Assembly (NCBI GenBank): GCA_000002445.1
Contig: CM000207.1
Location: forward strand, 2,528,001-2,592,000
DNA length: 64,000 nucleotides
Source: Trypanosoma brucei
Taxonomy: Eukaryota
Direction: 5' to 3'
Positions within the stretch are counted from its first letter, which is position 1. Every line of letters begins with the position of its first letter. The notes under the pieces were generated by a model, which was not told where the DNA came from, ran no database searches, and saw nothing but the letters and a program-made list of their open reading frames with translations. The position numbers were made by a program, and so were the translations under genes. This document shows positions 31,334 to 64,000 of the stretch, in pieces.

Positions 31334-31498
31334 TTGGGGGCATCCGCACTAATCACGGCAATTTTTGCATACGGGACGGTAACCAAAGGAAAAAACGCAG
31401 AGGACTTTGCGGCACTGTGTGGCTTAGTACAATTTGCTAAATCAAAAGTAACGGACGCTACGAAGCCTCAGGAAATAGAGAAAGTCATCAACACGTTG
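31334..31498 (+). pseudogene. VSG N-terminal fragment (signal peptide plus about 40 aa) truncated by ingi B. It reads in frame into the ingi 5' region.
   Basis: ORF 31334..31837 begins MGASALITAIFAYGTVTKGKNAEDFAALCGLVQFAK..., which is a typical VSG N-terminus. From DAGHLNVVPGS onward it continues into ingi sequence. Confidence 0.65.
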
Positions 31499-34400
31499 GC
31501 TGCTATAAATTTCGCATTCCCTAGCGATGCCGGCCACCTCAACGTGGTGCCAGGGTCCATTACCCCGTATCATCGGGGGAAGCCAAGAGCCAGCAGAGTT
31601 CCTTTCATGGGGAACACTGCTGTGCTCCGGCTACGGCATCATACAGCACAGGGATCAGCAGCGTCTTGCTGGGACACCGTTTTTCATTTGTCGGTCCCTG
31701 GGCACGTGGCTAGCGTGCCATCAGCAGTATCATCCGCACTAAGATGCTGCTGTCCGGTGATGTGGAAGAGAATCCCGGCCCGTCGTTGCGCGGGATGCAG
31801 TGGAACTGCGCCGGGCTATCTCAAGGAAAGAGATTAGCACTCCACAAAACCCTTGTTGATGAGCGGATCGCCTTTTGTCTGTTGAGCGAGACAAGGATGA
31901 CGCTTGGAGAGGCGGCTTTCTTTAGCGTTGCTGACTACCAACATCATGGAATAGCTCGTAACTGCAAAGGAGGTGGTGTATCAATACTAGTGAGGGAGGA
32001 CTTACCAGTCGAGACCGGTATGGCCGTTATTGGTCGCATTGAACAAGTGCATGCAACAATTCACCTTGCACGTGGAACGGCGCTGACTGTCACGTCGGCA
32101 TACATCCCACCAAAACACACCTTCACGGCAACTGACCTAGATACGCTTCTGACAACTGACGGTGCCCAGCTCATCGGTGCAGACGCTAACGCACACGCGT
32201 TGGCATGGGATCGCGCGAGCCCACCAAATACCAAGGGTGAAACCCTCACACAGTGGTGCATTGACAACCAGTTTCTGGTATGTAACACTGGTGAGTGCAC
32301 CAGGTACACGCGCCACCACGGGGAGTCCACCCCTGATGTGACACTGTCAAGGAATTGCACAGTGTACACGTGGACATCGCTGTATTCTCCCGATAGCGAT
32401 CACCATCACATATTTTTCGACGATATCGTTGGAGACGACACAGATGCACTGAGTTGCCCGCGGCTTCGAAAGCCCATGTACGCATGGCTAAAAGCTAACT
32501 GGAGGAATTTCCGTCTCAAGGTTCACGAGCTCTGCAGGAAAATTGGTAGAGAGAAGAATGTCAACACTCTGGAACAGAAATTGAGCTCCGCCATCCGCAC
32601 TGCGACGAATGTCTCCGTCCCCCGTGGCTGCAGAGTAACGCCACCACATTGGACACCTGCGCTCGCGAAAATCGATGAAGAGATCGCTGGATGCGCACCC
32701 TCCCACCGAAGGGAAAAGTTGGTAGCCACGCGTAAGCAGATCCTGGACCGTACCACAAAGAAGAGATGGAGCACGCTATGCTCCAGACTTGCGGTGTCAG
32801 ACTGCTGCAGTTGGCACATTGTCAAGAAGGTATATGCGCCACGAACACTAACCACACCGGCTGTACTTGTTGATAACGCGGCCACCACGGACTACCATCA
32901 AGCTGAGAGGTTCAGTAAACTGTACTCGTCCCGTGCAAGAAGGCACCCCGACTCACACCCACCGGCACCAATAAAGACGATAGCGAGTGAGTTCAGTCCC
33001 ATCACGATGGCTGAACTACGGAGATCGATCAAACTGCTACAGAGTGGATCCGCAGCAGGACCTGATTGCTTATACAACGAGGCAATACAACATTTCGGTA
33101 GAACAGCGCTGAATGTTGTTCTGAGGCTATTCAATGAGAGCCTACGAATGGGAGTCGTGCCGCCTGCATGGAAGATTGGTGTTATCATCCCCATCCTGAA
33201 GGCCGGAAAAAAGGGCGGAGGACCTCGATTCTTACAGGACTGTAACACTCACGAGCTGTCTCTGCAAAGTCATGGAGCGCATAATTGCCGCGAGGCTTAG
33301 AGACACTGTTGAGTCCCAGCTGATGCTACAGCAATCAGGCTTTCGCCCCGGATGCTCAACGCTCGAACAACTCCTGCACGTCCGCGCTGCCCTCTGCCGC
33401 CCCACGCACCAATATCGTACGGGTGCTGTATTCGTTGACTACGAGAAGGCATTCGATACAGTAGACCACGACAAAATTGCGAGGGAAATGCACAGAATGA
33501 AGGTATCACCCCACATTGTGAAGTGGTGCGTATCATTTCTGAGTAACCGAACTGGCAGAGTGAGATTCAAGGAGAAGCTTTCCAGAAGCAGAACATTTGA
33601 GCGAGGAGTGCCACAAGGAACTGTCCTTGGCCCAATCATGTTCATTATTGTCATGAACTCGTTGAGCCAGCGCCTTGCAGAAGTGCCGTTACTGCAGCAC
33701 GGATTCTTTGCAGACGACCTGACGCTACTTGCGAGGCACACAGAGAGGGATGTCATCAACCACACACTGCAATGCGGCCTAAACGTGGTGTTACAGTGGT
33801 CAAAAGAGTACTTCATGTCTGTCAACGTAGCGAAAACAAAATGCACACTCTTCGGGTGTATAGAGCGCCACCCCCTTACATTACAACTGGACGGCGAAAG
33901 AATAGGAGCTGACAGGACACCGAAGCTTCTAGGAGTAACATTCCAGTGTCTGCAAGGGATGGCAACACATGCGGCCGAAACGAGACGCAAGATGGACTTC
34001 CGACTACTGCAGATAGTGTCCATCTCAGCTTCTACATGGGGGCCAAGACGACAAGTACTGAGAGCTTTTTATCTAGCACTCGTACAGGCACACACAATGT
34101 ATGGCATTGAGGTATGGTACTGGGACGCTTCGGAACGAAGTCGTGACCTCCTTGCAGCAGCACAACACAAAGCCAGTCGCATCATAGCCGGCATACCGCA
34201 TGGGACGCGCAAAGAGGACTCTCTGCTGGAAGCAAACCTCCTGCCACTCAAGACGGCCACTCTTGTGCGCAGCATGAAATTCATACTGATCTGTGAGTCA
34301 CGAGGCGGATGTTTGCGGCGCAGTGCTGAGGAAGTATACCGCAACAAACACCCAGTCAGAGCCCAACATTCCCGCATCATGCGGTCCTATCCACACCTCC

Positions 34401-36636
34401 GCATTGAGCCACGCGAGCACCCACTAGAGAAATCGACGCTCCGCCACAGCTGTCGACCGCTATTTCACACGCAGATAAAGCCTGTGTGCGCTGATGACCC
34501 TGACGATGTCAAAAGGGAGGCTTCCGAAAAGTGGATTGAACGGCATTTTTCACGGAGGGGGAAGGAGCTACCGCGGCGAGAGCACTACGAATTGTGGACT
34601 GATGGATCCGTGTCCCTCGGTGAGAAGTCCGGAGCAGCTGCCCTGCTCTATAGAAACAATACGCTTATTTGTGCACCCAAAACCGGAGCAGGGGAACTCT
34701 CATGCAGTTACAGAGCGGAATGCGTATCATTAGAGATAGGACTGCAACGGCTGCTGAAATGGCTTCCGGCATACAGAAGCACACCGAGCAAGTTGTCTAT
34801 CTTCTCTGACTCGCCGTCAATGTTAACAGCACTGCAGACAGGCCCCCTAGCCGTAACGGACCCAATTCTAAGACGACTATGGAGGCTTCTGCTTCAAGTT
34901 CAGAGAAGGAAGTTGCGTATCCGACTGCAATTTGTGTTCGGCCATTGTGGCGTGAAACGGAATGAGGTTTGTGATGAAATGGCCAAAAAGGCCGTAAATT
35001 TACCACAGTTGCGAGACACATAGATCCCCGACATCATTGCTTATGCGAAGCGAGTGCTTAGGTCGGAAGAAGTCCATGAGAACACTCATAGGTTTGGTAT
35101 CACGGGCAACAACTTTCCAACAAAGCATAAAGAAAAACTGACGAGGGAAGAAGAAACGGCACTGGCACGCTTTCGGGTTGGGTCTTCAAGACACTATGGA
35201 TGGATGTTGCGAAAGATCAACCCGAGTGTGCCTCCACAGTGCCGATGGTGCAACCCGCAAAATGCAGAGATAGGGCCAACAATACAAACAGCCCCAACTG
35301 TTGCGACACGCACTCTTCAGAGAACCTCCGAACCGACAAAATGTACGGAATGTGATGCCACATACCAATGCCGCTCGAGTGCTGTAACGCATATGGTAAA
35401 CAAACACGGCTTTGTGCGAGCTGATGCCCTCCGGAGGATCAAATACGGCGATGCAACACCTGCAGTGGATATCCCCCCGGAGCCCCCTCCAGTGGTGCCT
35501 ATCGTCCCTCTACCATCGAGCACACGAGTCCCGATGAGACCGCAGGTACTTCATTGTACCATCTGTGCCTCCAAATTCGCAGTGCCAGGCCGACTATTAC
35601 ACCACCTTAGAACAATACATGGTATAGGCAGCGGTAGTTGCCGCGTGAAAAGGGGGCGAGAGAACGAGGACTCAGTGCAAGGAGATGGTAGAGCCCCAGC
35701 AGCGCCAGTCTCTCAGGATACACGGAAGCTGCCGTTTCAATGTGACCTGTGCGAGGCGAGCTTCGGTACACGCTCTTCCCTGTCACTACACAAGAAATTC
35801 AAACATAAGAGCATAGTGACGGAGGACGGTACCGTAGTGGTGGTGCAATTCCCTCGTAAGCTTGCCCGTGAGGAAAATGTTGACGTCCCGGGGAAAGGCG
35901 AGGTGCAGTGTGGTGTGTGTCAAAAAGTGCTCAGTTGCAGGGACTCCCTCATCCGACACTGTAAGGCTTTCCACAAAGGTGAGGGAGTCGAGCTTAAATG
36001 CAGCAAAAGCACAAAATTGTGTGCCACTGATTCCCCGCATACAAACACATCCATGTTGGTGTGCCCGACATGCGGAAGGCAGTGTGCTAGCAAAACTGGC
36101 CTCACCCTACATCAAAAGAAGATGCACGGTATGAAGGTAGAGCGCGCTGTTACCATCCAACGCGGCGACTTCGAAGAAACGTCGCTGCACTTGATGAGCT
36201 GCCCCTGTTTGAAGGAGTTACGTGTCAGGTTTGCGGTAGAAGGTGAGTGTGTGCAGGATGTATGTTTTTCTAAAAGGCTGGCGCAGTTTCTCATTGCGGT
36301 TGAACGGAACCTGCCGCAGGTGAAGTCCTCACCTAAGGTAACAGTCATACAACCCACTCTCCCTTCTGCAACTTCCCCCCTTATTGCCGAGTGTGGAGCT
36401 AGCAGGAAAAGCACCGGACGCAGGAATAGTCCATACACCCTCAGAGACAGAGAGGGTATGCAGTCAACAAGCAACAGGAACAGAAAGAGGGGGAGAGAAT
36501 AATAAACGAATAACAAAAATCAAAACAAAAGGATTGCTAATTGACATCTTTTGGAGAGTCCGGGTTGGGTGGCTTCTCGCCCCATCTGCTGTATTCCGTT
36601 CAACTGCGGAGCTACAACAAAAATTATAGAGAGTGT
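31499..36636 (+). mobile_element. ingi retrotransposon, degenerate copy. It is 3'-truncated by about 130 bp and joined directly to a 70-bp repeat.
   Basis: Its 5' end (ccctagcgatgccggccacctcaacgtggtgccagg) is homologous to copies A and D. The ORF is split into 31744..33300, 33272..35023 and 35054..36502. The last ingi-homologous bases (ctacaacaaaaattatagag) run straight into gagtgtgttgtgagtgtgcatatacgaatattataataagag. Confidence 0.9.
31744..36502 (+). pseudogene. ingi polyprotein pseudogene. It has a +1 frameshift in a G-run near 33205 and a TGG-to-TAG nonsense change at 35021-35023. The MLLSGDVEENPGP 2A-like start is retained.
   Basis: Alignment by eye against copies A and D: B reads aaaaaagggcggagg where D reads aaaaaaggcggagg, and B reads gacacatagatcc where D reads gacacatggatcc. 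Confidence 0.85.
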
Positions 36637-36790
36637 GTTGTGAGTGTGCATATACGAATATTATAATAAGAGCTGTAATAATAGTAATAATAATAATAAT
36701 GATAATGATAGATAATAATAATAATAAGAAAGTGTTGTGAGTGTGTGTATACGAATATTATAATAAGACAAGTAATAAAAAACATAATAA
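36637..36790 (+). repeat. 70-bp repeat block (2 units)
   Basis: Two near-perfect cores are present: gagtgtgttgtgagtgtgcatatacgaatattataataagag and gaaagtgttgtgagtgtgtgtatacgaatattataataagac. Confidence 0.9.
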
Positions 36791-37683
36791 GAAAAGCAAT
36801 GATAAAAACGAAGGCAGAAGGGGTTTGACAACGGCTATGAACAGGTAACAGAACAAGAAAACCACCGGACGGTAAGTGACAGCGTCCATAGACCAAGTCA
36901 GATCCAGATTACAACCGGCAGTAACAGCAGCCAGCCGACCCGAAGCCACCACCTCAAGCGCTAGAACAGGCAGGACAAGCAATGCCTAAAGCGTCAAACA
37001 TTCGACTCTGACATAAACTCGCAGTGACAAACCAACAGCTGCGGAGCCAAAGGCGGCGGTAGCGCTACCAGATCACAAGAGAACAGCAAAAGGATGAACA
37101 AATAAAGACAAACCGACACCGGCCTACAACCAAAAACCAAAACCGCCACCAAGTACAGGCATCGGTATAAAAACTGTTTTTACACCAGCTTTAATGCAGA
37201 ACGACCGCAGAAAACGGCGCACACGGCCTTAGAAATGAGCACTCTAACCCAGCTTAAACCAATAACGCCACAGCGCCTGCAAGAACAAAAAAAAGGGAAA
37301 ACAGCGGCTTTTAAACTGCTGCTAAAGTCTAATAAATTTAACTAGAAGTTGAAACAGCACACAATGAGTGGCAATATCTGATAACGAAAACGCAGCAAAA
37401 GCAGGCGGCAGCGTCAGCAAAGCACTAAATACAACACTGAAACCGAACGACGCAAAACCAAAGCAGCAAGAGTCACCGCAGCATCAGCAAACGAGACCAA
37501 CAAACTTACGGAAAAGAATCAGGACACAATTGGCCTAAACCCTAAGCCACAGCAACGGCACTTTCTCAGAGATGTGCAAAGAAACCAGATTTTACGCTTT
37601 TACAAAGACGCCACAAACGCCAAATCTCCTAAATCTCCGCAGTCCAAACACCTACGAAACCAAACAGCAAGAGAAAAGCAAAT

Positions 37684-39050
37684 GTGGAGACTAAAAGCGT
37701 TAGCAATGCTAATAGCAACAATACCAAGCTCAGCTGCAGCAGCGAAGCAAGAAGCAAACAGACCCCAGTGCGGCAATCCGTGCGGTTGCATGGTGCGCAT
37801 CGACGTGCTGTTGGAAAGGCTGGAAAAAGCGGCAAGCACAGGGGTAGCGAAAATTTCAGGAAACGCAGAAGCAATGCAGCAGCTAGCACTAGGAGCGGCA
37901 AGCACAGACGACAAGGTAGCACGGCTTCTAGCACCATTGCTAGCCGTAGCAACGCACGTAAACGCAGAAGCGACGGCAAAGCTCTCAGCAGCACCGGACA
38001 CGATCGCAAGGGCAACGGCGCTACTAAATAAAAAGAAAGCAGTGCAAGAAGCTAAAAAACGGCTGTACGGTAGCTATGAGGCGGCAATTTTAACGAGAGC
38101 CAGCCACTTCGGCGACGCCACGTACGCGCCGAAGACGCACAAGCAAGCACCGCGGACAGCGTGCGGAGAATTCCAGGACGATGCCTATTTTTCTCTGGAC
38201 GAGCTTAATTTTGACCATGATGCCGGACTAGGCGACTCAAACCTAGGACTAAACGTCAAACAGGCTTGCTACAAAAGCAACCCGGGCTCACCGTGCGACG
38301 CAAGCGGCAGCACCGACAAACTAAGCACAGCAATAACTATAGCGCCCGCGGCAACGGCCACTGCGTCAGGACCACTTGCAGGCGGCAATGAAAAGATCAC
38401 AACGAAGGCAACAATAACACTGGCCAATGAAACTGACGATGAAAAGACGGTACTCAAAGCGGCGCAGACGGCCGAAAAACACCTAACATCAGTGCCAGAC
38501 CTATCAAAGCTAAGCACGTACACGGACAGCACAGCATTCAAATTACTAGTAAACCGATTAGTGATGGGGACAGCAGCAGACAGCCCAATACAAGGAAAGA
38601 TGGCTGAAGAAACGGCCAACTTTATAACCAAAAATTACGGCAAAGACGACGAAGAGTTTACAAAAAACATATGGGAAAAAATAAAAACAGCCACGACAAT
38701 ATACTACGAAGATAAGGCAAAAAACAAAAAAGATCAAAGACCTAACCGAAACCGAACAAGTCACCGCGCTAACACCTGCATTTTTAAAGGCGGACAAAGA
38801 AACGCCAGCAACGATAAAAGAGACAACACCAGCAGGAACAGGAGAAAAACCAGATACAGAAGACAAAACAGAAAAGAAAAACGTGGATAAAAAGGACGAG
38901 GTTTGCACAGGCGCTGAAGAAGGTAAATGTGACAAGACAAAATGCGATTGGAACGCAGAGAAAAAACAGTGCAAAGTTAAAGAGGGGGCAGTTACTATTT
39001 CAGCTGTAATTAAAGCCCCTCTTTTGCTTGCATTTTTGGTTCTAGCTTAA
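37684..39050 (+). pseudogene. VSG pseudogene. It is frameshifted near 38720 and ends ...CDKTKCDWNAEKKQCKVKEGAVTISAVIKAPLLLAFLVLA*.
   Basis: ORF 37574..38890 contains the signal peptide MWRLKALAMLIATIPSSAAAA. Its C-terminal domain and GPI signal lie in another frame. It is a close paralogue of the C-terminus of the 21081 VSG. Confidence 0.75.
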
Positions 39051-39109: not shown

Positions 39110-39125
39110 TGATATATTTTAACAC
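39110..39125 (+). promoter_or_regulatory. VSG 3'UTR canonical 16-mer (tgatatattttaacac)
   Basis: Exact match. Confidence 0.85.
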
Positions 39126-49062: not shown

Positions 49063-50793
49063 GTGGTGACGTCGGAGTACTGTGGCTATCAATATGTGAC
49101 TATGGAAGCTAAGATAAACTTTGTTGAAATTCAACACCGTTTCCTGCCGCTTCAGCTAATACTTAAACAACAAATGCTTCTTGTCCAAAATAATTTAGCT
49201 AAACAGCGAACCGACTGGTACAATGACAATGAAGGACGGGAAAGCCTAAGGACGCGATACACAATAGGGATGCTGTGTGCTTCGGCATTACTTTACAGCA
49301 GACACGTGGAAGCAGCTGCAGGAGATGCGGTGAAGCACGACAACGTGAAGGCGATATGCGACGTAGCTGCCGATGGGCAGAAACTAATGGCGACGCTGCT
49401 GAAAAACATGCAAGACCTCGGGAGAGAAGCCAGAATTGCGCAGCTGCGGTCACTGCGGCTGCAGGTGTACGACGCTGCAACGAATCAAGGGCAAACGCCA
49501 AAGCACACCACGGCGGTATGGTCCATGCTAACTGAACAGATCGAACGAGCGAGCACCATAGTAGCTGGAACAGCAGCTGCAACGGCAATTAAAGGAGCAA
49601 GGGATGTCGGCCGACTCCAAGGAGCGATCACAGAGTTCCTGGAGACCCAAGCTGACGCATCCGCCGCTACCAAAGGATGCTTACAGGCGTCGAATGGTGG
49701 AACAAACATCATCAACGATAAAACACAGCTGTACTCAACGTACGCAAACTGTAAACTCGACTTGGCGGAACCGACGGCAGGAGCCACAGCTCTGACGGTG
49801 ATCACTAAAACAGGGATACAAGGCAAACTCAGAAACGGCCTTAGCCACGGCGCCACAACAGACTCTAGCGCGAATACGGACTGCGACGCTGGAATGGGAA
49901 CAGGAACGTACAAACTCACCTATGGCACCACAGGGCACAGCGTAACGGGTCATGTTCCAAAGCTAGCAGGTGGCCTATTGACAGTAGACACCAACGGGTT
50001 CACGGTGCCGGAGCTCGCCACAAAAGTAGCCGCATCAACTGCGACCGAGTATCTAGGGGCAGCGGTGACAGCGGCAGAGAACCTAACTCCGTTCATCGAA
50101 AGCGCAGACATAAACACAATAGGAACTCTGAAATACGCGGCCATATTCAAAGACAGCGCACGCCACTATTTCCTAAACAAAAGCAAGACAGAAGCACAAG
50201 AGGACAACAGTCTGCCCAGCCTAATAGAAGCAGCCTTCGACGATGACGCTGGGGTTAAGAAAGACATGTACGAAACCGCCAGTAACTACCCAATCCCTGA
50301 GGAACTGAGACCTAGTGTTGCAGAAGACTAACTCGGGAAGATAAACGATGCCCACAACCTTATGCGGCTGTACTTTCACTTCAAGAACAGCAACACTAAA
50401 ACTCTGCTGGACAAGATTAAAAAACTGCAGGATGCAGAAAATTTAAAAAAAGAAACCCCAAATCAGAATAAAACAAGAAATAATGTAATACCAAGGGGAA
50501 GGACAAAAAAGAAGATTGTGAAAAACTAGCTGAAGAAGGATGCGTTTTTAACCCAAAATGCGAAAAGGAAAAAAGTGCACATTGAGTGAAGAATGCAAAC
50601 AGAAAGTACAAAAAGAGGAGCCTCAGCTGCTACAACAGAGAAATGCAAAGGAAAATTGAAAACCGACTGCACCAAGGCCCCTGGTCGCAAAAAGGGAAGG
50701 AAAATATGAAAAAAACTCCGTTTCGTCAATAAGAAATTGGCTCTAATGGTTTCTTTTTCTCTAGTTTTTTATTTTAAGGATTATAAAATTTAA
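49063..50793 (+). pseudogene. VSG pseudogene. ORF 49063..50331 has a plausible true start near 49270 (MLCASALLYSRHVEAAAGDAVKHDNVKAICDV). The C-terminal domain carries frameshifts and stops, and the GPI-signal region is degenerate (FVNKKLALMVSFSLVFYF).
   Basis: The N-domain is VSG-like, and there is a degraded C-domain (EKCKGKLKTDCTKAP). The 16-mer lies downstream. Confidence 0.7.
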
Positions 50794-50837
50794 AAGGTTT
50801 TTTCTCCATTTATAAAATTATAGAATTTACTAAAATT

Positions 50838-50853
50838 TTATATATTTTAACAC
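50838..50853 (+). promoter_or_regulatory. VSG 3'UTR 16-mer variant (ttttatatattttaacac)
   Basis: Motif match. Confidence 0.7.
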
Positions 50854-51016
50854 TATTATAAGACTTTTGAGAAATCTGTAATTTTTGAAAAATATAAAAA
50901 CATGAAAAATTTTGTATGAAAGCGGGATAATGGTGTAAAATATTATATGGATTTTTATTAAAAAACTAGTGGTATTATGAAAATTCTAGATTTTGTTTAT
51001 TTAATTTGATATAATA

Positions 51017-55054: not shown

Positions 55055-56431
55055 ATGCTCGGGCCTTTTCAGTTTTTTTTCGAAACCTACAGGATTACTT
55101 TGAAACAAGTAACAAAAGAGGTGTTCAGCGATCTACCGCAAAAGCCTTTAACAGAAGAACTAAACGACTTGCAAATGGTAACTTTACAGGGCAAAAATTT
55201 CACAAACGCAACGCACGGCGAGTTCTCAACACCAATTGCCTGGGCCAAGAAAAAAAGCGAACTCTTAAGAGCAAAACCTGGCACACCCACACACAAACAG
55301 CTAAAACGTTACAGCGAAACGAAGCTAACAGCGGTCATAAACGACAGGATTATGCCCCTACAACAAGAAGCCAAAACAGTATCAGACAAATATGACAAGG
55401 CCAACAGCGACGTAAACCAAGCAGTGATCGATGCCAACACGTTCCTGAAAGCAGCCCGCAACGGCGCAAACGATACAGCAGACGACGCACAAGCCGCATT
55501 CGACACGAGGGACAAAGCATGCGCAACGGCAGACGGCAGCTCAGCGGGCAAATCGATAGTGTCGGACGTAGCATGCCCCTGCAGCGGAACCGGTGCATCA
55601 AACCTATGCTACAACGGCAACAGCAATACAGACTACGCCAGCGGTGCTACGGCAGCAGAGGCGCTAACAGCATGGTGTGCAGTAAAAGCGACATGCAAAG
55701 CGCAGGGGCAACAGCAGGTCCCAACGGGCGCCCAAATCACCGCAACTATTTCGGCACTCGAAAGACACCTTGGAGCGGACGCCACGGGCGTCGATGCCAC
55801 GACAATACTCGGAGGCGGGACTTCAGCTAACTGCAACGGTGGAACGGGCGTGGCAAACGCGTGCGTCGACTACAAGAAACGGATGTCAGGGCACGGCATA
55901 GCTGGGATCCCATGGGTTCAGAATTTGCTGCAAGCAGCGCAAGCCTTACAAAGAGGCAGACAAGCGACTGCAGAGTTGAAAGAAAGTGCAGCCGCTATGA
56001 AATCGATCACAGCAAGTGCATGGAGACTACACGATATGCTAGCAGCCAACGAGATGATAAACACTGAAGCCAAGCAAGGAGAACAAAAAGTAAGTGATAA
56101 AAAAGTAGACGAGTGCATTTCAGCAGGAGACGACACCGCTAAATGCAATTCGGCCAAAGGAAAGGGATGTACTTTTAACGAAAAAGGAGAAGAGGGAGAA
56201 AAGTGTGAGTTGAAAAAGGAAGTAATAGAATCTCTAAAAGAAGAAAACCAAGAAGGCAAAGATGGGAAGAAAGAGGAGAAATGTGCAGGGAAGGAGCAAG
56301 GAGACTGCGAGAAAGCTACTTGCTGCAAATGTAAAAATAATGCTTGTAAAAATTCCAGTATTCTTGTAAATAATAAATTTACATTGAGTGATGCTGCCTA
56401 TATGGGTTTGGTGGCATTTTTAGAATTCTAA
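55055..56431 (+). CDS. VSG (458-aa ORF) with a canonical GPI-signal C-terminus (SILVNNKFTLSDAAYMGLVAFLEF*). The N-terminus lacks a recognisable signal peptide, so it is probably 5'-degenerate.
   Basis: The C-domain (CKCKNNACKNSS) and N-domain body (ACPCSGTGASNLCYNGN) are VSG-like. The ORF begins MLGPFQFFFETYRITLKQV, which is not hydrophobic. A short hydrophobic ORF (MVSAAVVAFFNAS) lies out of frame just upstream, at about 54993. No 70-bp repeat lies upstream. Confidence 0.6.
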   Translation: MLGPFQFFFETYRITLKQVTKEVFSDLPQKPLTEELNDLQMVTLQGKNFTNATHGEFSTPIAWAKKKSELLRAKPGTPTHKQLKRYSETKLTAVINDRIMPLQQEAKTVSDKYDKANSDVNQAVIDANTFLKAARNGANDTADDAQAAFDTRDKACATADGSSAGKSIVSDVACPCSGTGASNLCYNGNSNTDYASGATAAEALTAWCAVKATCKAQGQQQVPTGAQITATISALERHLGADATGVDATTILGGGTSANCNGGTGVANACVDYKKRMSGHGIAGIPWVQNLLQAAQALQRGRQATAELKESAAAMKSITASAWRLHDMLAANEMINTEAKQGEQKVSDKKVDECISAGDDTAKCNSAKGKGCTFNEKGEEGEKCELKKEVIESLKEENQEGKDGKKEEKCAGKEQGDCEKATCCKCKNNACKNSSILVNNKFTLSDAAYMGLVAFLEF

Positions 56432-57650: not shown

Positions 57651-59030
57651 ATGCTTAATAAAGGTCGCTACCTCCTTATCTATCTTTTGGCCGCTGTGTC
57701 GTTGGCCAACTCCGCAAACGCAGCAGCAGGAGACGCCATAAAGAAGCAATACTGGACGAGCTTCTGCGATGTCGCAGTTGAAGCTGAGACAATACCGTCT
57801 CAAGCGATAACCAGCCTAGAGGCGGCGGCAACGGAGGGCCTAAACAAGTTCAAATTCCTACTAAAGGCGCAAATATACGCCGAAGGAAACTTGACAAGGC
57901 CGACGGCTCCCGAAGAAAGAATGCTATGGACGTTTGGCGCGCATGAAACAGAAAAGGCGTTCAATTACTATACCAGCGCTGCTCCAGGCCAGATAATAAC
58001 GGCGGTTAGGGATGCAGGACGACTGCAAGGAGCAATAGGTGAATGGATAAACCTGATGGCAGAAGGTTCAGACGGCACAGACGGATGTCTCAGCAACAAC
58101 GACGGTGGTGGCAACCCAATAAGCGGGAGAAACGCGCTGACTGGAGACATGTAAAAATGTAAACTGAAATGGGAACCGGTACACAAAGGACAGGTACAAG
58201 GTACTTTGCTTGGACCAACAGGCCTTACGGGTAGTTTCTCAACGGGCGTAGCCCACGGAAGCTTAGTCAACGGAAACAAAAAATGCGGCATAAATTCGCC
58301 AAACACAGGCTTCCTGTTAAACGACGCGGATACAAGCGGCAGCGGCAACGGCGCAAATGTAGCGGGCCACACTCCAAAGATGGCTGCTGGACTACTAACC
58401 ATAGACAACACAGGCCTAATAATCGAGGTGTTAGCTGACACAGAAACTAAGCAGGCAACACACCCTTACCTGCATTACGCAGTAAAAGCCAAAACGAACG
58501 TTCAGCAGATGTTCAACTCCGATATGCCGCAAACTTTAGAGACAGCAAAGACATCTGAGCAACTAAAGCGGGCAGCAAGAAGGCAACTACTAGGCAAAAA
58601 AGACAGTGAAACTTCCGAAGACAACCAGATACCCGACAAAATCAAAAGTGTATTCACGACCAACGACAAATACCTAGCGATCCTACACAAAAACATAGAC
58701 GCCATGCCTACACCCAAAGAGCTGACAGATGATAAGCAGGAAACCACCCTAGGCGAAATCAACGACGTGGACCTCCTAATTCGTCTGTATTTTTACTATG
58801 TGGATGCCAACAAGAGAAAACTGCAAAACACATTAGACGAGCTACGAAATGTAAATAAAAAGCAAGAACCAAAATCAGCAGAAGACAAGGAAAAAGAGTG
58901 CAATACCAAAGGCAATGATAAGCAAGAAGAGTGTGAAAAACTAGAGAGTCAAGGGTGTATTTTTAACAAGGAGGGCAAGAAGTGGAAAAAGTGCACATTG
59001 AGCGAGGAAGGCAAAAAAGGAAGGAGCTAA
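57651..59030 (+). pseudogene. VSG pseudogene with an internal frameshift near 58155-58205. The C-terminus is truncated, with no GPI signal, by the ingi C 3' end.
   Basis: The signal peptide is LLIYLLAAVSLANSANA. VSG-like ORFs 57651..58154 and 58206..59030 end ...CIFNKEGKKWKKCTLSEEGKKGRS*. The ingi 3' terminus begins at about 59062. Confidence 0.7.
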
Positions 59031-59061
59031 ACAACAATCAGAAAAAGAAGGAGGGAAAGAT

Positions 59062-60133
59062 GAGAATTTTAATTTTAATTTTCTTCGTGCCTTCGTGGGA
59101 GTTTCCCCCCACTGGCGCGGCCATCAGCCATCACCGTAGAGCCCTGAGATGCTATCGGTCTGGCGACTGTGGCAGAGTCTCCCTTTTTTTATTCATCCTA
59201 ATACACCCTCTATAATTTTTGTTGTAGCTCCGCAGTTGAACGGAATACAGCAGATGGGGCGAAAAGCCTCCCACTCCGGACTCTCCAAAAGATGTCAATT
59301 AGCAATCCTTTTGTTTTGATTTTTGTTATTCGTTTATTATTCTCTCCCCCTCTTTCTGTTCCTGTTGCTTGTTGACTGCATACCCCCTCTGTCTCTGAGG
59401 GTGTATGGACTATTCCTGCGTCCGGTGCTTTTCCTGCTAGCTCCACACTCGGCAATAAGGGGGGAAGTTGCAGAAAGGAAAGTGGGTTGTATAACTGTTA
59501 CCTTAGGTGAGGACTTCACCTGCAGCCGGCTCCGTTCAACCGCAATGAGAAACTGCGCCAGCCTTTTAGAGAAACATACATCCTGCACACACACACACAC
59601 ACACACCTTCCACCGCAAACCTGACACGTAACTCCTTCAAACTGGGACAGCTCATCAAGTGCAGCGACGTTTCTTCGAAGTCGCCGCGTTGGATGGTAAC
59701 AGCGCGCTCTACCTTCATACCGTGCATCTTCTTTTGATGTAGGGTGAGGCCAGTTTTGCTAGCACACTGCCTTCCGCATGTCGGGCACACCAACATGGAT
59801 GTGTTTGTATGCGGGGAATCAGTGGCACACAATTTTGTGCTTTTGCTGCATTTAAGCTCGACTCCCTCACCTTTGTGGAAAGCCTTACAGTGTCGGATGA
59901 GGGAGTCCCTGCAACTGAGCACTTTTTGACACACACCACACTGCACCTCGCCTTTCCCCGGGACGTCAACATTTCCCCCACGGGCACGCTTACGAGGGAA
60001 TTGCAACACCACTACGGTACCGTCCTCCGTCACTATGCTCTTATGTTTGAATTTCTTGTGTAGTGACAGGGAAGAACGTGTACCGAAGCTCGCCTCGCAC
60101 AGGTCACATTGAAACGGCAGCTTCCGTGTATCC
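59062..60133 (-). mobile_element. ingi 3' fragment, about 1.07 kb, covering the C-terminal zinc-finger region and the 3' end with its A-rich tail
   Basis: It is homologous to 11385-12432 of copy A. ORF 59566..60189 (-) encodes ...DTRKLPFQCDLCEASFGTRSSLSLHKKFKHKS... The 3' end has ttcgtgccttcgtgggagtttcccccc, preceded by ttttaattttaatttt. Confidence 0.85.
59588..59606. repeat. (CA)9 microsatellite inside ingi C. It is expanded relative to copies A and B.
   Basis: This copy reads cacacacacacacacacac, where copy A reads cacacacactcacc at 11888. Confidence 0.9.
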
Positions 60134-63100
60134 TCCCTGGTGATGCTGGTCACATCAACGTGGTGCCAGGATCCAGTACCCCGTATCATCGGGTGAAGCC
60201 AAGAGCCAGCAGCGTTCCTTTCATGGGGAACACTGCTGTGCTCTGGCTACGGCATCATACAGCACAGGGATCAGCAGCGTCTTGCTGGGACACCGTTTTT
60301 CATTTGTCGGTCCCTGGGCACGTGGCTAGCGTGCCATCAGCAGTATCATCCGCACTAAGATGCTGCTGTCCGGTGATGTGGAAGAGAATCCCGGCCCGTC
60401 GTTGCGCGGGATGCAGTGGAACTGCGCCGGGCTATCTCAAGGAAAGAGATTAGCACTCCACAAAACCCTTGTTGATGAGCGGATCGCCTTTTGTCTGTTG
60501 AGCGAGACAAGGATGACGCCTGGAGAGGCGGCTTTCTTTAGCGTTGCTGGCTACCAACATCACGGAATAGCTCGTAACTGCAAAGGAGGTGGTGTATCAA
60601 TACTAATGAGGGAGGACCTACCAGTCGAGACCGGTATGGCCGTTGTTGGTCGCATTGAACGAGTGCATGCAACAATTCACCCTGCACGTGGAACGGCGCT
60701 GACTGTCACGTCGGCATACATCCCACCAAAACACACCTTCACGGCAACTGACCTAGATACGCTTCTGACAACTGACGGTGCCCAGCTCATCGGTGCAGAC
60801 GCTAACGCACACGCGTTGGCATGGGATCGCGCGAGCCCACCAAATACCAAGGGTGAAACCCTCACACAGTGGTGCATTGACAACCAGTTTCTGGTATGTA
60901 ACACTGGTGAGTGCACCAGGTACACGCGCCACCACGGGGAGTCCACCCCTGATGTGACACTGTCAAGGAATTTCACAGTGTACACGTGGACATCGCTGTA
61001 TTCTCCCGATAGCGATCACCATAACATATTTTTCGACGTTATCGTTGGAGACGACACAGATGCACTGAGTTGCCCGCGGCTTCGAAAGCCCATGTACGCA
61101 TGGCTAAAAGCTAACTGGAGGAATTTCCGTCTCAAGGTTGACGAGCTCTGCAGGAAAATTGGTAGAGAGAAGAATGTCAACACTCTGGAACAGAAATTGA
61201 GCTCCGCCATCCGCACTGCGACGAATGTCTCCGTCCCCCGTGGCTGCAGAGCAACGCCACCACATTGGACACCTGCGCTCGCGAAAATCGATGAAGAGAT
61301 CGCTGGATGCGCACCCTCCCACCGAAGGGAAAAGTTGGTAGCCACGCGTAAGCAGATCCTGGACCGTACCACAAAGAAGAGATGGAGCACGCTATGCTCC
61401 AGACTTGCGGTGTCAGACTGCTGCAGTTGGCACATTGTCAAGAAGGTATATGCGCCACGACCACTAACCACACTGGCTGTACTTGTTGATAACGCGGCCA
61501 TCACGGACTACCATCAAGCTGAGAGGTTCAGTAAACTGTACTCGTCCCGTGCAAGAAGGCACCCCGACTCACACCCACCGGCACCAATAAAGACGATAGC
61601 GAGTGAGTTCAGCCCCATCACGATGGCTGAACTATGGAGATCGATCAAACTGCTTCCGACCGGATCCGCAGCAGGACCTGATTGCTTATACAACGAGGCA
61701 ATACAACATCTCGGTAGAACAGCGCTGAATGTTGTTCTGAGGCTATTCAATGAGAGCCTACGAACGGGAGTCGTGCCGCGTGCATGGAAGACTGGTGTTA
61801 TCATCCCCATCCTGAAGGCCGGAAAAAAGGCGGAGGACCTCGATTCTTACAGGACTGTGACGCTCACGAGCTGTCTCTGCAAAGTCATGGAACGCATAAT
61901 TGCCGCGAGGCTTAGAGACACTGTTGAGTCCCAGCTGACGCCGCAGCAATCAGGCTTTCGCCCCGGATGCTCAACGCTCGAACAACTCCTGCACGTCCGC
62001 GCTGCCCTCTGCCGCCCTACGCACCAATATCGTACGGGTGCTGTATTCGTTGACTACGAGAAGGCATTCGATACAGTAGACCACGACAAAATTGCGAGGG
62101 GAATGCACAGAATGAAGGTATCACCCCACATTGTGAAGTGGTGCGTATCATTTCTGAGTAACCGAACTGGCAGAGTGAGATTCAAGGAGAAGCTTTCCAG
62201 AAGCAGAACATTTGAGCGAGGAGTGCCACAAGGAACTGTCCTTGGCCCAATCATGTTCATTATTGTCATGAACTCGTTGAGCCAACGCCTTGCAGAAGTG
62301 CCGTTACTGCAGCACGGATTCTTTGCAGACGACCTGACGCTACTTGCGAGGCACACAGAGAGGGATGTCATCAACCACGCACTACAATGCGGCCTCAACG
62401 TGGTGTTACAGTGGTCAAAAGAGTACTTCATGTCTGTCAACGTAGCGAAAACGAAGTGCACACTCTTCGGGTGTATAGAGCGCCACCCCCTTACATTGCA
62501 ACTGGACGGCGAAAGAATAGGAGCTGACAGGATACCGAAGCTTCTAGGAGTAACATTCCAGTGTCAGCAGGGGATGGCAACACATGCGGCCGAAACGAGA
62601 CGCAAGATGGACTTCCGACTACTGCAGATAGTGTCCATCTCAGCTTCTACATGGGGGCCAAGACGACAAGTGCTGAGAGCTTTTTATCTAGCACTCGTAC
62701 AGGCACACACCATGTATGGCATTAAGGTATGGTACTGGGACGCTTCGGAACGAAGTCGTGACCTCCTTGCATCAGCACAACACAAAGCCAGTCGCATCAT
62801 AGCCGGCATACCGCATGGGACGCGCAAAGAGGACTCTCTGCTGGAAGCAAACCTCCTGCCACTCAAGACGGCCACTCTTGTGCACAGCATGAAATTCATG
62901 CTGATGTGTGAGTCACGAGGCGGATGCTTGCGGCGCAGTGCTGAAGAAGCATACCACAGCAAACACCCAGTCAGAGCCCAACATTCCCGCATCATGCGGT
63001 CCTATCCACACCTCCGCATTGAGCCACGCGAGCACCCACTAGAGACACCGACGCTCCGCCACAGCTGCCGACCGCTATTTCACACGCAGATAAAGCCTGT

Positions 63101-64000
63101 GTGCGCTGATGACCCTGACGATGTCAAAAGGGAGGCTTCCGAAAAGTGGATTGAACGGCATTTTTCACGGAGGGGGAAGGAGCTACCGCGGCGAGAGCAC
63201 TACGAATTGTGGACTGATGGATCCGTGTCCCTCGGTGAGAAGTCCGGAGCAGCTGCCCTGCTCTATAGAAACAATACGCTTATTTGTGCACCTAAAACCG
63301 GAGCAGGGGAACTCTCATGCAGTTACAGAGCGGAATGCGTAGCATTAGAGATAGAACTGCAACGGCTGCTGAAATGGCTTCCGGCATACAGAAGCACACC
63401 TAGCAGGTTGTCCATCTTCTCTGACTCGCTGTCAATGTTAACAGCACTGCGGACAGGCCCCCTAGCCGTAACGGACCCAATTCTAAGACGACTATGGAGG
63501 CTTCTGCTTCAAGTTCAGAGAAGGAAGATACGTATCCGACTTCAATTTGTGTTTGGCCATTGTGGCGTGAAACGGAATGAAGTTTGTGATGAGATGGCCA
63601 AAAAGGCCGCTGATTTACCACAGTTGCGAGACACATGGATCCCCGACATCATTGCTTATGCGAAGCGAGTGCTTAAGTCGGAAGAAGTCCATGAGAACAC
63701 TCATAGGTTTGGTATCACGGGCAACCACTTTCCAACAAAGCATAAAGAAGAACTGACGAGGGAAGAAGAAACGGCACTGGCACGCTTTCGGGTTGGGTCT
63801 TCAAGGCACTATGGATGGATGTTGCGAAAGATTAACCCGAGTGTGCCTCCACAGTGCCGATGGTGTAACCCGCAACATGCAGCGATAGGACCAACAATAC
63901 AAACAGCCCCAACTGTTGCGACACGCACTCTTCAAAGAACCTCCGAACCGACCAAATGTACGGAATGTGATGCCACATACCAATGCCGCTCGAGTACTGT
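60134..64000 (+). mobile_element. ingi retrotransposon. Its 5' end begins exactly at the breakpoint in ingi C and it continues past the window end.
   Basis: The 5' sequence ccctggtgatgctggtcacatcaacgtggtgccagg is shared with copy A. The junction at 60133|60134 joins antisense ingi C sequence (…cttccgtgtatcct) to the sense-strand ingi 5' end. Confidence 0.9.
60360..64000 (+). CDS. ingi polyprotein ORF. It starts MLLSGDVEENPGP and runs 1213 codons to the window end with no stop found on hand translation (3'-partial).
   Basis: It is absent from the ORF track only because it runs off the window edge. Manual translation follows the copy A protein throughout. Confidence 0.75.
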   Translation, partial: MLLSGDVEENPGPSLRGMQWNCAGLSQGKRLALHKTLVDERIAFCLLSETRMTPGEAAFFSVAGYQHHGIARNCKGGGVSILMREDLPVETGMAVVGRIERVHATIHPARGTALTVTSAYIPPKHTFTATDLDTLLTTDGAQLIGADANAHALAWDRASPPNTKGETLTQWCIDNQFLVCNTGECTRYTRHHGESTPDVTLSRNFTVYTWTSLYSPDSDHHNIFFDVIVGDDTDALSCPRLRKPMYAWLKANWRNFRLKVDELCRKIGREKNVNTLEQKLSSAIRTATNVSVPRGCRATPPHWTPALAKIDEEIAGCAPSHRREKLVATRKQILDRTTKKRWSTLCSRLAVSDCCSWHIVKKVYAPRPLTTLAVLVDNAAITDYHQAERFSKLYSSRARRHPDSHPPAPIKTIASEFSPITMAELWRSIKLLPTGSAAGPDCLYNEAIQHLGRTALNVVLRLFNESLRTGVVPRAWKTGVIIPILKAGKKAEDLDSYRTVTLTSCLCKVMERIIAARLRDTVESQLTPQQSGFRPGCSTLEQLLHVRAALCRPTHQYRTGAVFVDYEKAFDTVDHDKIARGMHRMKVSPHIVKWCVSFLSNRTGRVRFKEKLSRSRTFERGVPQGTVLGPIMFIIVMNSLSQRLAEVPLLQHGFFADDLTLLARHTERDVINHALQCGLNVVLQWSKEYFMSVNVAKTKCTLFGCIERHPLTLQLDGERIGADRIPKLLGVTFQCQQGMATHAAETRRKMDFRLLQIVSISASTWGPRRQVLRAFYLALVQAHTMYGIKVWYWDASERSRDLLASAQHKASRIIAGIPHGTRKEDSLLEANLLPLKTATLVHSMKFMLMCESRGGCLRRSAEEAYHSKHPVRAQHSRIMRSYPHLRIEPREHPLETPTLRHSCRPLFHTQIKPVCADDPDDVKREASEKWIERHFSRRGKELPRREHYELWTDGSVSLGEKSGAAALLYRNNTLICAPKTGAGELSCSYRAECVALEIELQRLLKWLPAYRSTPSRLSIFSDSLSMLTALRTGPLAVTDPILRRLWRLLLQVQRRKIRIRLQFVFGHCGVKRNEVCDEMAKKAADLPQLRDTWIPDIIAYAKRVLKSEEVHENTHRFGITGNHFPTKHKEELTREEETALARFRVGSSRHYGWMLRKINPSVPPQCRWCNPQHAAIGPTIQTAPTVATRTLQRTSEPTKCTECDATYQCRSST

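What the first reader, a model, noticed from the sequence alone, without database searches (positions are those of the whole stretch)
59062..60400. Head-to-tail inverted ingi junction: the copy D 5' end begins inside antisense copy C
At 60133|60134 the minus-strand ingi C sequence (equivalent to position 12419 of copy A, within the zinc-finger region) switches without any spacer to the plus-strand ingi 5' terminus ccctggtgatgctgg…. This is either a nested retrotransposition of D into C at an internal site, or an inversion or recombination between two copies. The same ingi C fragment also truncates the C-terminus of the 57651 VSG, so three events are stacked within 1.1 kb.
Basis: seen in the sequence. 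Interest (0 to 1): 0.5.

Follow-up and report, generated by a model that had tools for sequence, protein, structure and literature searches.

The report
Inverted ingi retrotransposon junction in VSG
Two pieces of the trypanosome retrotransposon ingi lie head to head inside a broken surface-antigen (VSG) pseudogene; they are real and most simply explained by one insertion that flipped part of itself ("twin priming"), but the sequence that would prove this lies just outside the window, and either way it is ordinary repeat-element wear and tear.

Summary
The last 1,050 bp of an ingi element, with its A-rich tail, lie on the minus strand at 59077-60134 (copy C). They abut nucleotide +1 of a plus-strand ingi at 60135 (copy D), with no spacer and no microhomology. 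Three details need correcting. The junction is 60134|60135. It corresponds to copy A position 12431, not 12419. The arrangement is head-to-head (two 5' ends meet), not head-to-tail.

The window is a Trypanosoma brucei Lister 427 VSG array. The tail of C cuts off the 3' end of an already frameshifted A-type VSG pseudogene.

A junction exactly at ingi +1 points to an RNA run-off end, so it comes from retrotransposition. Homologous recombination or inversion between copies cannot produce it.

Two models remain:
- **Twin priming (about 0.5):** one insertion event gives C, D and the VSG truncation together.
- **Nested insertion (about 0.3):** a full-length D inserted into an older antisense C.

In-window tests are compatible with one source element but not decisive. 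The target-site signature scores 5/10, and C and D have equal private divergence (1.74% and 1.73%).

The deciding sequence is 270-1,400 bp beyond the window end, and I could not retrieve it. Interest is low to moderate.

The parts
57651..59064 (+). A-type VSG pseudogene. It has an internal frame break between 58154 and 58206 and a premature stop at 59028-59030. Its 3' end is missing: the rest of the C-terminal domain, the GPI signal and the 3' UTR.
   Evidence: PF00913 hits on both ORF halves. The paralogue at 50439-50900 continues into a hydrophobic GPI-signal-like tail (frame translation ...FVNKKLALMVS...) and a 16-mer-like element (TATATATTTTAACAC) that are missing here.
59053..59064 (.). 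GGGAAAGATGAG: the 12 nt of target DNA next to the tail of C. This is the presumed 3' copy of the 12-bp target-site duplication. Its partner should lie beyond the window.
   Evidence: Position read. The 12-bp TSD rule for Tbingi is from PMC3820030. The only other match in the window at up to 1 mismatch is at 10578 and is not next to an ingi end.
59065..59082 (-). A-rich tail of copy C, (AAAATT)3 when read on the minus strand. The last unit overlaps the AAATT end of ingi itself.
   Evidence: Copy A ends ...AAATTCC(A)9 at the same position.
59077..60134 (-). Copy C: ingi positions 4196-5245. It holds the C2H2 zinc-finger part of the ORF, the 3' UTR and the 3' end, and is 5'-truncated at 60134.
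   Evidence: 96.2% identity to copy A 11382-12431 and 96.6% to copy B. Zinc-finger Pfam hits.
59586..59605 (.). (CA)10 microsatellite inside C. It is 10 nt longer than in six of the seven other ingi copies aligned (copy A has +2) and shifts the frame of the last ~80 codons of the ingi ORF.
   Evidence: Multiple alignment and C-terminal translations.
60134..60135 (.). Inversion junction: ingi 4196 (antisense) joined directly to ingi +1 (sense). No filler and no microhomology.
   Evidence: alignment. Register fixed.
60135..64000 (+). Copy D: ingi positions 1-3866, running off the window end. The ORF is open from 60330 to 64000, with the ATG at 60360.
   Evidence: 97.2% and 97.4% identity to copies A and B. 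A single open frame of 3,671 nt. Exo_endo_phos, RVT_1 and RNase_H domains.
60135..60211 (+). The 5' hallmark of ingi (Pr77, the first 77 nt), intact from nucleotide +1 (CCCTGGTGATGC...).
   Evidence: Alignment with the 5' ends of A and B. [quoted passage not shown] No Rfam family matched.

Best explanation
C and D are the two arms of one ingi retrotransposition event that underwent twin priming when it inserted into the C-terminal coding region of a VSG pseudogene.

Inferred steps:
1. The ingi endonuclease nicks the window's plus strand after ...GGGAAAGATGAG (59064).
2. That 3'-OH primes reverse transcription on the A-rich tail of an ingi RNA. The result is the plus-strand antisense cDNA 5245->4196, which is C.
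3. The second nick, 12 bp away on the minus strand, frees a 3' end (...CTCATCTTTCCC-3') that anneals inside the same RNA near position 4130-4200.
4. This second primer directs a second cDNA that runs to the RNA's 5' end at nucleotide +1. On the plus strand this reads as sense ingi 1->Y, which is D.
5. The first cDNA stops where the second primer sits.
6. The two cDNA 3' ends (positions 4196 and 1) are joined, probably by template jumping of the reverse transcriptase, because there is no microhomology.

What is shown: the two arms, their orientation, the tail, the exact +1 end and the spacer-free join. What is inferred: that D stops near position 4196 and that a 12-bp duplication flanks the whole composite. 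Both lie outside the window.
For: 1. The geometry is that of a 5'-inverted LINE insertion. The non-inverted 3' arm carries the tail next to target DNA. The other arm is inverted, and the two 5'-proximal ends meet at the junction. The definition of twin priming is in PMC2912911.
2. The arms do not overlap and are complementary in content (1-3866+ and 4196-5245), so together they can make up exactly one element.
3. The junction falls exactly on ingi +1, as expected for a cDNA that ran off the RNA 5' end.
4. A join without microhomology is what full-length (template-jump) ends show in L1.
5. C and D look like one lineage. Private substitutions are 16/922 = 1.74% for C and 67/3866 = 1.73% for D. 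Both are closest to B and then A. Both carry similar fractions of A/B-type alleles, 5/11 for C and 29/51 for D.
6. One event explains the VSG truncation, C and D together.
7. Ingi makes a staggered 12-bp double nick, which is the substrate geometry that twin priming needs.
Against: - The two defining tests cannot be done in the window: that D ends close to position 4196, and that the composite is flanked by a TSD.
- Twin priming has not been reported for ingi/L1Tc elements. No paper in the searchable library contains both terms.
- None of the 12 other ingi copies examined (A, B and 10 in L001-L008) shows an inverted arm.
- The lineage-similarity evidence is weak. There are only 16 private sites and 11 informative sites in C, and all Lister 427 copies may resemble each other through concerted evolution.
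- The 5' flank of D inside C scores 5/10 on the ingi4 target signature. That is neither a clear target nor clearly random.
Confidence: 0.5

Rival explanations
1. Nested insertion in two events. An antisense ingi (C, originally longer or full length) first inserted into the VSG. Later a full-length ingi (D) retrotransposed into C between positions 4195 and 4196, in the opposite orientation. The remaining 4.2 kb of C would lie beyond the 3' end of D.
For: - D begins exactly at +1 like an ordinary full-length insertion.
- Its ORF is open for at least 1,224 codons, as in a young element.
- The 34 nt upstream of D match the ingi4 signature at 5/10, including the near-invariant A(-34) and GG(-19/-18). 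Only 10% of random positions reach that score.
- Subtelomeric arrays are rich in ingi: four copies in this 64-kb window.
Against: - Eight of 10 full-length ingi flanks score 7 or more, one scores 6 and one scores 3. D's site lacks G(-22) and T(-11), each present in 8 of the 9 flanks scoring 6 or more.
- The antisense strand of ingi offers 31 sites scoring 7 or more that were not used.
- A position-weighted likelihood ratio I worked out by hand from those flank alignments is only about 1.5, so this test does not really discriminate.
- This model needs two events, and it needs C to be older than D. Yet C carries no more private substitutions than D (1.74% against 1.73%).
Confidence: 0.3
2. DNA-level rearrangement: a break and non-homologous or microhomology-mediated end-joining, a deletion, or a replication template switch fused an antisense ingi to a neighbouring sense ingi.
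For: Flank exchange has clearly happened to other ingi copies in this array. Copy A has a good 5' target signature but no matching 12-bp repeat at its tail. Copy B lacks its last ~126 bp and is fused to 70-bp-repeat-like sequence.
Against: - A random breakpoint would have to fall exactly on nucleotide +1 of a 5.2-kb element.
- There is no microhomology at the join. From my own knowledge, end-joining in T. brucei is largely microhomology-dependent.
- Homologous recombination between copies cannot create a non-colinear junction.
Confidence: 0.1
3. Two independent neighbouring insertions. Either a 5'-truncated C landed against the 5' end of an existing D, or D landed exactly at the truncated end of an existing C.
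For: Ingi insertions cluster in these arrays, and truncated copies exist (copy B).
Against: - C after D is excluded by the sequence. A C insertion would leave a 12-bp target duplication between C's 5' end and D. There is no spacer, and D's first 12 nt (reverse complement GCATCACCAGGG) are not repeated after C's tail, which is followed by CTCATCTTTCCC.
- D after C requires the second-strand cut to fall exactly on C's end, at a site scoring only 5/10.
Confidence: 0.03
4. Assembly artefact: a chimeric long read or a misjoin in a repeat-rich subtelomere.
For: The region is highly repetitive. I could not inspect reads.
Against: - Misjoins in repeats occur through shared colinear sequence, and the two sides of this junction share none.
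- The arms are not a palindrome (1-3866 against 4196-5245), so this is not a hairpin-read artefact.
- The break coincides with a biologically meaningful nucleotide, ingi +1.
Confidence: 0.05

Closest known systems
Twin-primed (5'-inverted) LINE-1 insertions (Ostertag & Kazazian 2001; surveyed in PMC2912911)
   Same: - A tailed, 5'-truncated 3' arm in one orientation.
- An inverted arm from further 5' in the same element.
- The two 5'-proximal ends joined at an inversion junction.
- An endonuclease that makes a staggered double nick giving a TSD.
   Different: - Here the inverted arm reaches nucleotide +1 and is about 4 kb long. L1 inverted arms are usually themselves truncated.
- There is no microhomology at the junction.
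- The element is a trypanosomatid ingi-clade retroposon, for which the mechanism has not been described.
- The far end and the TSD are unseen.
Canonical full-length Tbingi insertions (ingi4 subclade; Bringaud et al. 2004, as summarised in PMC3820030)
   Same: D has the CCCTGG 5' hallmark. It encodes endonuclease, reverse transcriptase and RNase H, and is 97% identical to copies A and B. C has the zinc-finger region and an A-rich tail.
   Different: D's upstream flank is antisense ingi rather than a target scoring 7 or more on the 5'-AxxxxxxxTxxxGTxGGxTxxx^xTxTxxTxxxxx signature. C is 5'-truncated at position 4196.
Nested LINE-in-LINE insertions
   Same: One element's terminus lies inside the body of another.
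   Different: Nesting predicts the host element resumes after the guest, with a duplicated host 12-mer. This is not visible here, and the site is a mediocre target.

Membership tests
Tbingi (ingi4 subclade non-LTR retrotransposon) | High nucleotide identity to full-length ingi across the segment | tested here: met
   C is 96.2-96.6% and D 97.2-97.4% identical to copies A and B. They are 95-97% identical to T. b. equiperdum copies.
Tbingi (ingi4 subclade non-LTR retrotransposon) | Conserved 5' hallmark starting CCCTGG at +1 | tested here: met
   D 60135- aligns from +1 with A and B. The same 36-mer is found at the 5' ends of 8 copies in 6 loci.
Tbingi (ingi4 subclade non-LTR retrotransposon) | [quoted passage not shown] | tested here: met
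   D has Exo_endo_phos, RVT_1 and RNase_H. C has zf-C2H2.
Tbingi (ingi4 subclade non-LTR retrotransposon) | 12-bp target-site duplication | not testable with these tools
   Only one flank of the C/D pair is in the window. Copies A and B also show no intact TSD in the window.
Tbingi (ingi4 subclade non-LTR retrotransposon) | Conserved signature upstream of the 5' end (AxxxxxxxTxxxGTxGGxTxxx^xTxTxxTxxxxx) | tested here: inconclusive
   D's flank scores 5/10. Ten other full-length copies score 9, 8, 8, 8, 7, 7, 7, 7, 6 and 3. Random positions reach 5 or more in 10% of cases.
Twin-primed 5'-inverted LINE insertion | Two segments of one element in opposite orientation, the 3' one carrying the tail next to target DNA | tested here: met
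   C (minus strand, 4196-5245 plus tail at 59065-59082) and D (plus strand, 1-3866).
Twin-primed 5'-inverted LINE insertion | At the inversion junction the 5'-most base of the inverted arm meets the 5'-truncation point of the tailed arm | tested here: met
   Ingi +1 is joined to ingi 4196 at 60135|60134.
Twin-primed 5'-inverted LINE insertion | The inverted arm ends (its 3'-most element position) close to the truncation point of the tailed arm, with only a small deletion or duplication | not testable with these tools
   D runs off the window at element position 3866. The predicted end (~4130-4200) is 270-330 bp beyond 64000. No collection I could query held this assembly.
Twin-primed 5'-inverted LINE insertion | One target-site duplication flanks the whole composite | not testable with these tools
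   The left copy would be GGGAAAGATGAG at 59053-59064. The right copy would be outside the window.
Twin-primed 5'-inverted LINE insertion | Microhomology at the inversion junction (frequent, not obligatory) | tested here: not met
   0 nt of overlap. In L1 a minority of inversion junctions, and full-length ends in general, lack it.
Nested insertion of one ingi in another | The host element resumes after the guest, with a duplicated host 12-mer (TCCGTGTATCCT) | not testable with these tools
   This would lie at about window 65380 or later, outside the window.
A-type VSG (pseudogene) | VSG N-terminal domain, C-terminal domain, GPI signal and conserved 3'-UTR 16-mer | tested here: not met
   The N-terminal domain is present but split over two frames. 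The C-terminal domain is cut at 59064. No GPI signal or 16-mer follows. In the window, exact matches to the 16-mer core were found only at 39111 and 54195, and a one-mismatch copy follows the paralogue near 50860.

The most novel reading that the evidence does not exclude
This is a twin-primed ingi insertion: the first documented 5'-inverted insertion in the trypanosomatid ingi/L1Tc clade. Its inverted arm was copied all the way to nucleotide +1. That would show that the ingi endonuclease cuts the second strand before first-strand synthesis is finished, and that both cDNAs are joined without microhomology in an organism generally thought (from my own knowledge) to rely on microhomology-mediated end-joining.
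Probability: 0.5. Interest if true: 0.4.

Novelty: new member of a known kind. Interest (0 to 1): 0.27.

Why it matters
If it is twin priming, it gives a small mechanistic insight into ingi retrotransposition. It bears on the order of the two strand cuts, the high processivity of the enzyme and template jumping at the RNA 5' end. It would also extend a mechanism defined in mammalian L1 to a very distant LINE clade.

It is also a caution for annotating VSG arrays. What looks like three stacked events may be one, and a 5'-truncated ingi next to a 'full-length' one may be a single element. If it is a nested insertion, it is routine. Either way it does not change understanding of antigenic variation, because the VSG affected was already a pseudogene.

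Tried and rejected
**Retrieving sequence beyond the window**
- Exact-protein look-ups of four window ORFs all returned nothing: the junction-spanning ORF, both VSG halves and VSG-773.
- VSG-773 is known only from the Lister 427 VSGnome protein entry, so the Lister 427 assembly is not in the contig collection.
- Exact scans for the 26-nt junction found nothing in metagenome or prokaryote genome collections.

**Homology search with the junction ORF**
- It returned nothing, although ingi zinc-finger proteins exist in the database. This is a limit of the tool's sensitivity, not a biological result.

**Target-site signature as a discriminator**
- I first read D's 5/10 score as evidence against nested insertion.
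- After calibrating on 10 real flanks and on random sequence, the likelihood at a score of 5 is about equal under both models. I withdrew that argument.

**ORF intactness of C as a sign of youth**
- Rejected. A (CA)n expansion frameshifts its tail.

**Survey for other inverted ingi junctions**
- I examined 8 loci with 10 copies from T. b. equiperdum and T. b. gambiense and found none. The sample is too small to estimate a rate.

**Rfam search for the 5' ribozyme**
- No family matched. The only hit was a sub-threshold chance match to a miRNA family.

**TSD partners within the window**
- None found for A, B or C.

**C inserting next to a pre-existing D**
- Rejected from the sequence: there is no TSD spacer.
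Full report
**What the window is**

The ORF at 55055-56431 is 100% identical to 'Variant surface glycoprotein 773' of Trypanosoma brucei from the Lister 427 VSGnome. The window is therefore a subtelomeric VSG array of that strain. It carries four ingi segments (self-BLAST):
- **Copy A:** minus strand, 11382-16626, 5,245 bp, with an ORF of 1,526 codons.
- **Copy B:** plus strand, 31519-36636, lacking its last ~126 bp.
- **Copy C:** minus strand, 59077-60134.
- **Copy D:** plus strand, 60135 to the window end.

**Checking the observation**

C matches A 11382-12431 at 96.2% over 1,058 nt. D matches A and B from their 5' ends at 97.2% and 97.4% over 3,867 nt.

At base level, the C homology runs through ...CTTCCGTGTATCCT (60134). 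A and B then continue GAGAGACTGG, while the window continues CCCTGGTGATGCTGG, the ingi 5' terminus.

The element starts at CCCTGG and not at the preceding T. This is shown by copy A, whose upstream 34 nt fit the published Tbingi insertion signature at 8 of 10 specified positions in that register and only 3 of 10 one base over.

So the junction is 60134|60135, with no filler and no shared bases. It joins ingi position 4196 (antisense) to ingi position 1 (sense). The arrangement is head-to-head, because the truncated 5' end of C meets the 5' end of D.

The junction lies just upstream of the first C2H2 finger.

C ends in an (AAAATT)n tail at 59065-59082, which abuts VSG sequence.

**The VSG**

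ORFs 57651-58154 and 58206-59030 are two halves of an A-type VSG N-terminal domain in different frames. There is a further stop at 59028-59030, 34 nt before the ingi tail. The gene was therefore a pseudogene in any case.

A 75%-identical paralogue at 50439-50900 continues for about 140 nt of coding sequence, including a GPI-signal-like hydrophobic tail. About 100 nt of 3' UTR with the conserved 16-mer-like element follow. None of this follows 59064. The VSG 3' end has been displaced by the ingi material.

**What can be excluded from the sequence**

- **Recombination or inversion between copies.** Homologous recombination or inversion between ingi copies keeps elements colinear and cannot join position 1 to position 4196. 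A break that falls exactly on nucleotide +1 of a 5.2-kb element indicates an end made by reverse transcription running off the RNA 5' end. [quoted passage not shown] Rfam has no matching model.
- **C inserting beside an existing D.** This would leave a 12-bp target duplication between them. There is none, and D's first 12 nt are not repeated after C's tail.
- **A palindromic read artefact.** The arms do not overlap in element coordinates, so this is excluded.

**The two serious models**

*Twin priming.* Twin priming is a variant of target-primed reverse transcription. The second nicked target strand anneals inside the same RNA and primes a second cDNA. This gives a tailed 3' arm and an inverted 5' arm whose 5'-proximal ends are joined. 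About 30% of recent human and chimpanzee L1 insertions have this form.

Mapped onto this locus:
1. The plus-strand 3'-OH after GGGAAAGATGAG primes the antisense cDNA 5245->4196, which is C.
2. The minus-strand 3' end (...CTCATCTTTCCC) primes internally.
3. It is extended to +1, which is D.
4. The two cDNA ends are joined.

The absence of microhomology fits a template jump from the RNA 5' end, as inferred for full-length L1 ends. This single event would also account for the VSG truncation.

*Nested insertion.* Nested insertion of a full-length D into an older antisense C predicts the same in-window picture.

**Attempts to discriminate inside the window**

*Target signature.* The Tbingi signature is 5'-AxxxxxxxTxxxGTxGGxTxxx^xTxTxxTxxxxx. 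Ten full-length flanks were scored:

| Copy | Score (of 10) |
|---|---|
| A | 8 |
| B | 8 (with two extra nt) |
| L001 | 8 |
| L002 (two copies) | 3 and 6 |
| L003 | 7 |
| L004 | 7 |
| L005 | 7 |
| L008 (two copies) | 9 and 7 |

D's flank inside C scores 5. Random window positions reach 5 or more in 10% of cases, and the antisense strand of ingi has 31 positions scoring 7 or more. A score of 5 is about equally likely under 'real but poor target' and 'not a target'. A position-weighted ratio I worked out by hand from these flanks is about 1.5. The test is therefore inconclusive.

*Lineage.* In three-way comparisons with A and B, D has 67 private substitutions in 3,866 sites (1.73%) and C has 16 in 922 (1.74%).

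Against seven full-length references, both are closest to B and then A (D 2.56% and 2.79%; C 2.39% and 3.05%).

I then took sites where A and B agree with each other but differ from the T. b. equiperdum copies. D carries the A/B allele at 29 of 51 such sites and C at 5 of 11.

C and D therefore behave like parts of one element. The numbers for C are small, and all four copies come from one strain.

*Coding state.* D's ORF is open for at least 1,224 codons. C's ORF is open through the zinc fingers, but a (CA)10 expansion frameshifts the last ~80 codons. Such an expansion can arise quickly, so it says little.

**Attempts to see beyond the window**

Exact-protein look-ups for four window ORFs failed. 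The junction 26-mer is absent from the two large DNA collections. The Lister 427 assembly is evidently not held.

I fetched eight loci from T. b. equiperdum and T. b. gambiense through ingi proteins. They supplied 10 further copies for calibration. None has an inverted arm.

**Literature**

No paper in the searchable library mentions twin priming together with ingi. The three papers that mention twin priming and trypanosomes are about L1 or RTE-related elements by title, and I did not read them.

**Verdict**

The feature is real and was produced by retrotransposition.

| Explanation | Probability |
|---|---|
| Single twin-priming event | ~0.5 |
| Nested insertion | ~0.3 |
| DNA-level rearrangement | ~0.1 |
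| Assembly artefact | ~0.05 |
| Coincidental adjacent insertions | ~0.03 |

The deciding observation is simple and lies 270-1,400 bp beyond the window. Either D stops near element position 4130-4200 and is followed by GGGAAAGATGAG plus the VSG 3' end, or it runs to 5245 and is followed by TCCGTGTATCCT and the rest of C.

Interest is low to moderate. At best this is a first example of a known LINE mechanism in a new clade. At worst it is a routine nested repeat.

Noticed in passing
window 36560-36800: Copy B of ingi stops at 36636, about 126 bp short of the normal 3' end and without a tail. It is fused directly to AT-rich repeats (GTGTTGTGAGTGTGCATATACGAATATTATAATAAGA... TAATAATAA...) that look like VSG-upstream 70-bp repeats. 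This suggests a deletion or recombination event at that end.
   Followed up: partly
window 11290-11381 and 16627-16660: Copy A has a strong insertion signature upstream (8/10, implied TSD GTATATTGTAGT), but the 12-mer is not repeated after its poly(A) tail. The only other near-match in the window is at 38693. The two flanks of A therefore do not belong to one insertion event, which indicates flank exchange between ingi copies.
   Followed up: partly
window 31485-31518: Copy B fits the insertion signature (8/10) only if two extra nucleotides (TT) lie between the duplicated target and nucleotide +1. These are either untemplated bases or a 14-bp stagger.
   Followed up: partly
window 59586-59605 (and the equivalent site in copy A near 11850): A (CA)n/(GT)n microsatellite near the end of the ingi ORF varies in length. 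C has +10 nt and A +2 nt relative to B and five T. b. equiperdum copies. Each expansion shifts the frame of the last ~80 codons, so this is a recurrent way of truncating the ingi protein's C-terminus.
   Followed up: partly
window 58154-58206 and 59028-59030: The VSG at 57651 is a pseudogene independently of the ingi. Its N-terminal domain is split between two frames, and there is a stop 34 nt before the ingi tail.
   Followed up: partly
L006 9790-9830 (T. b. equiperdum QSBY01000015.1): This ingi copy has an altered 5' end. About 20 nt of the conserved hallmark (GGCCACCTCAACGTGGTGCC) are deleted between short direct repeats, and the first bases differ, so its promoter/ribozyme region is probably dead.
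   Followed up: no
L002 9950-9992 (T. b. equiperdum CM010672.1): A full-length ingi encoding an intact 1,656-aa protein sits behind a flank that matches the insertion signature at only 3/10. Not every intact copy is at a canonical site, or else its flank has been exchanged.
   Followed up: no
window 59566-60189 (minus strand): A 207-codon ORF spans the junction. Its first 18 codons are antisense to the 5' hallmark of D and the rest is the ingi zinc-finger region. It is almost certainly a by-product of the junction and not a gene. A homology search with it returned nothing, even though ingi zinc-finger proteins are in the database.
   Followed up: partly
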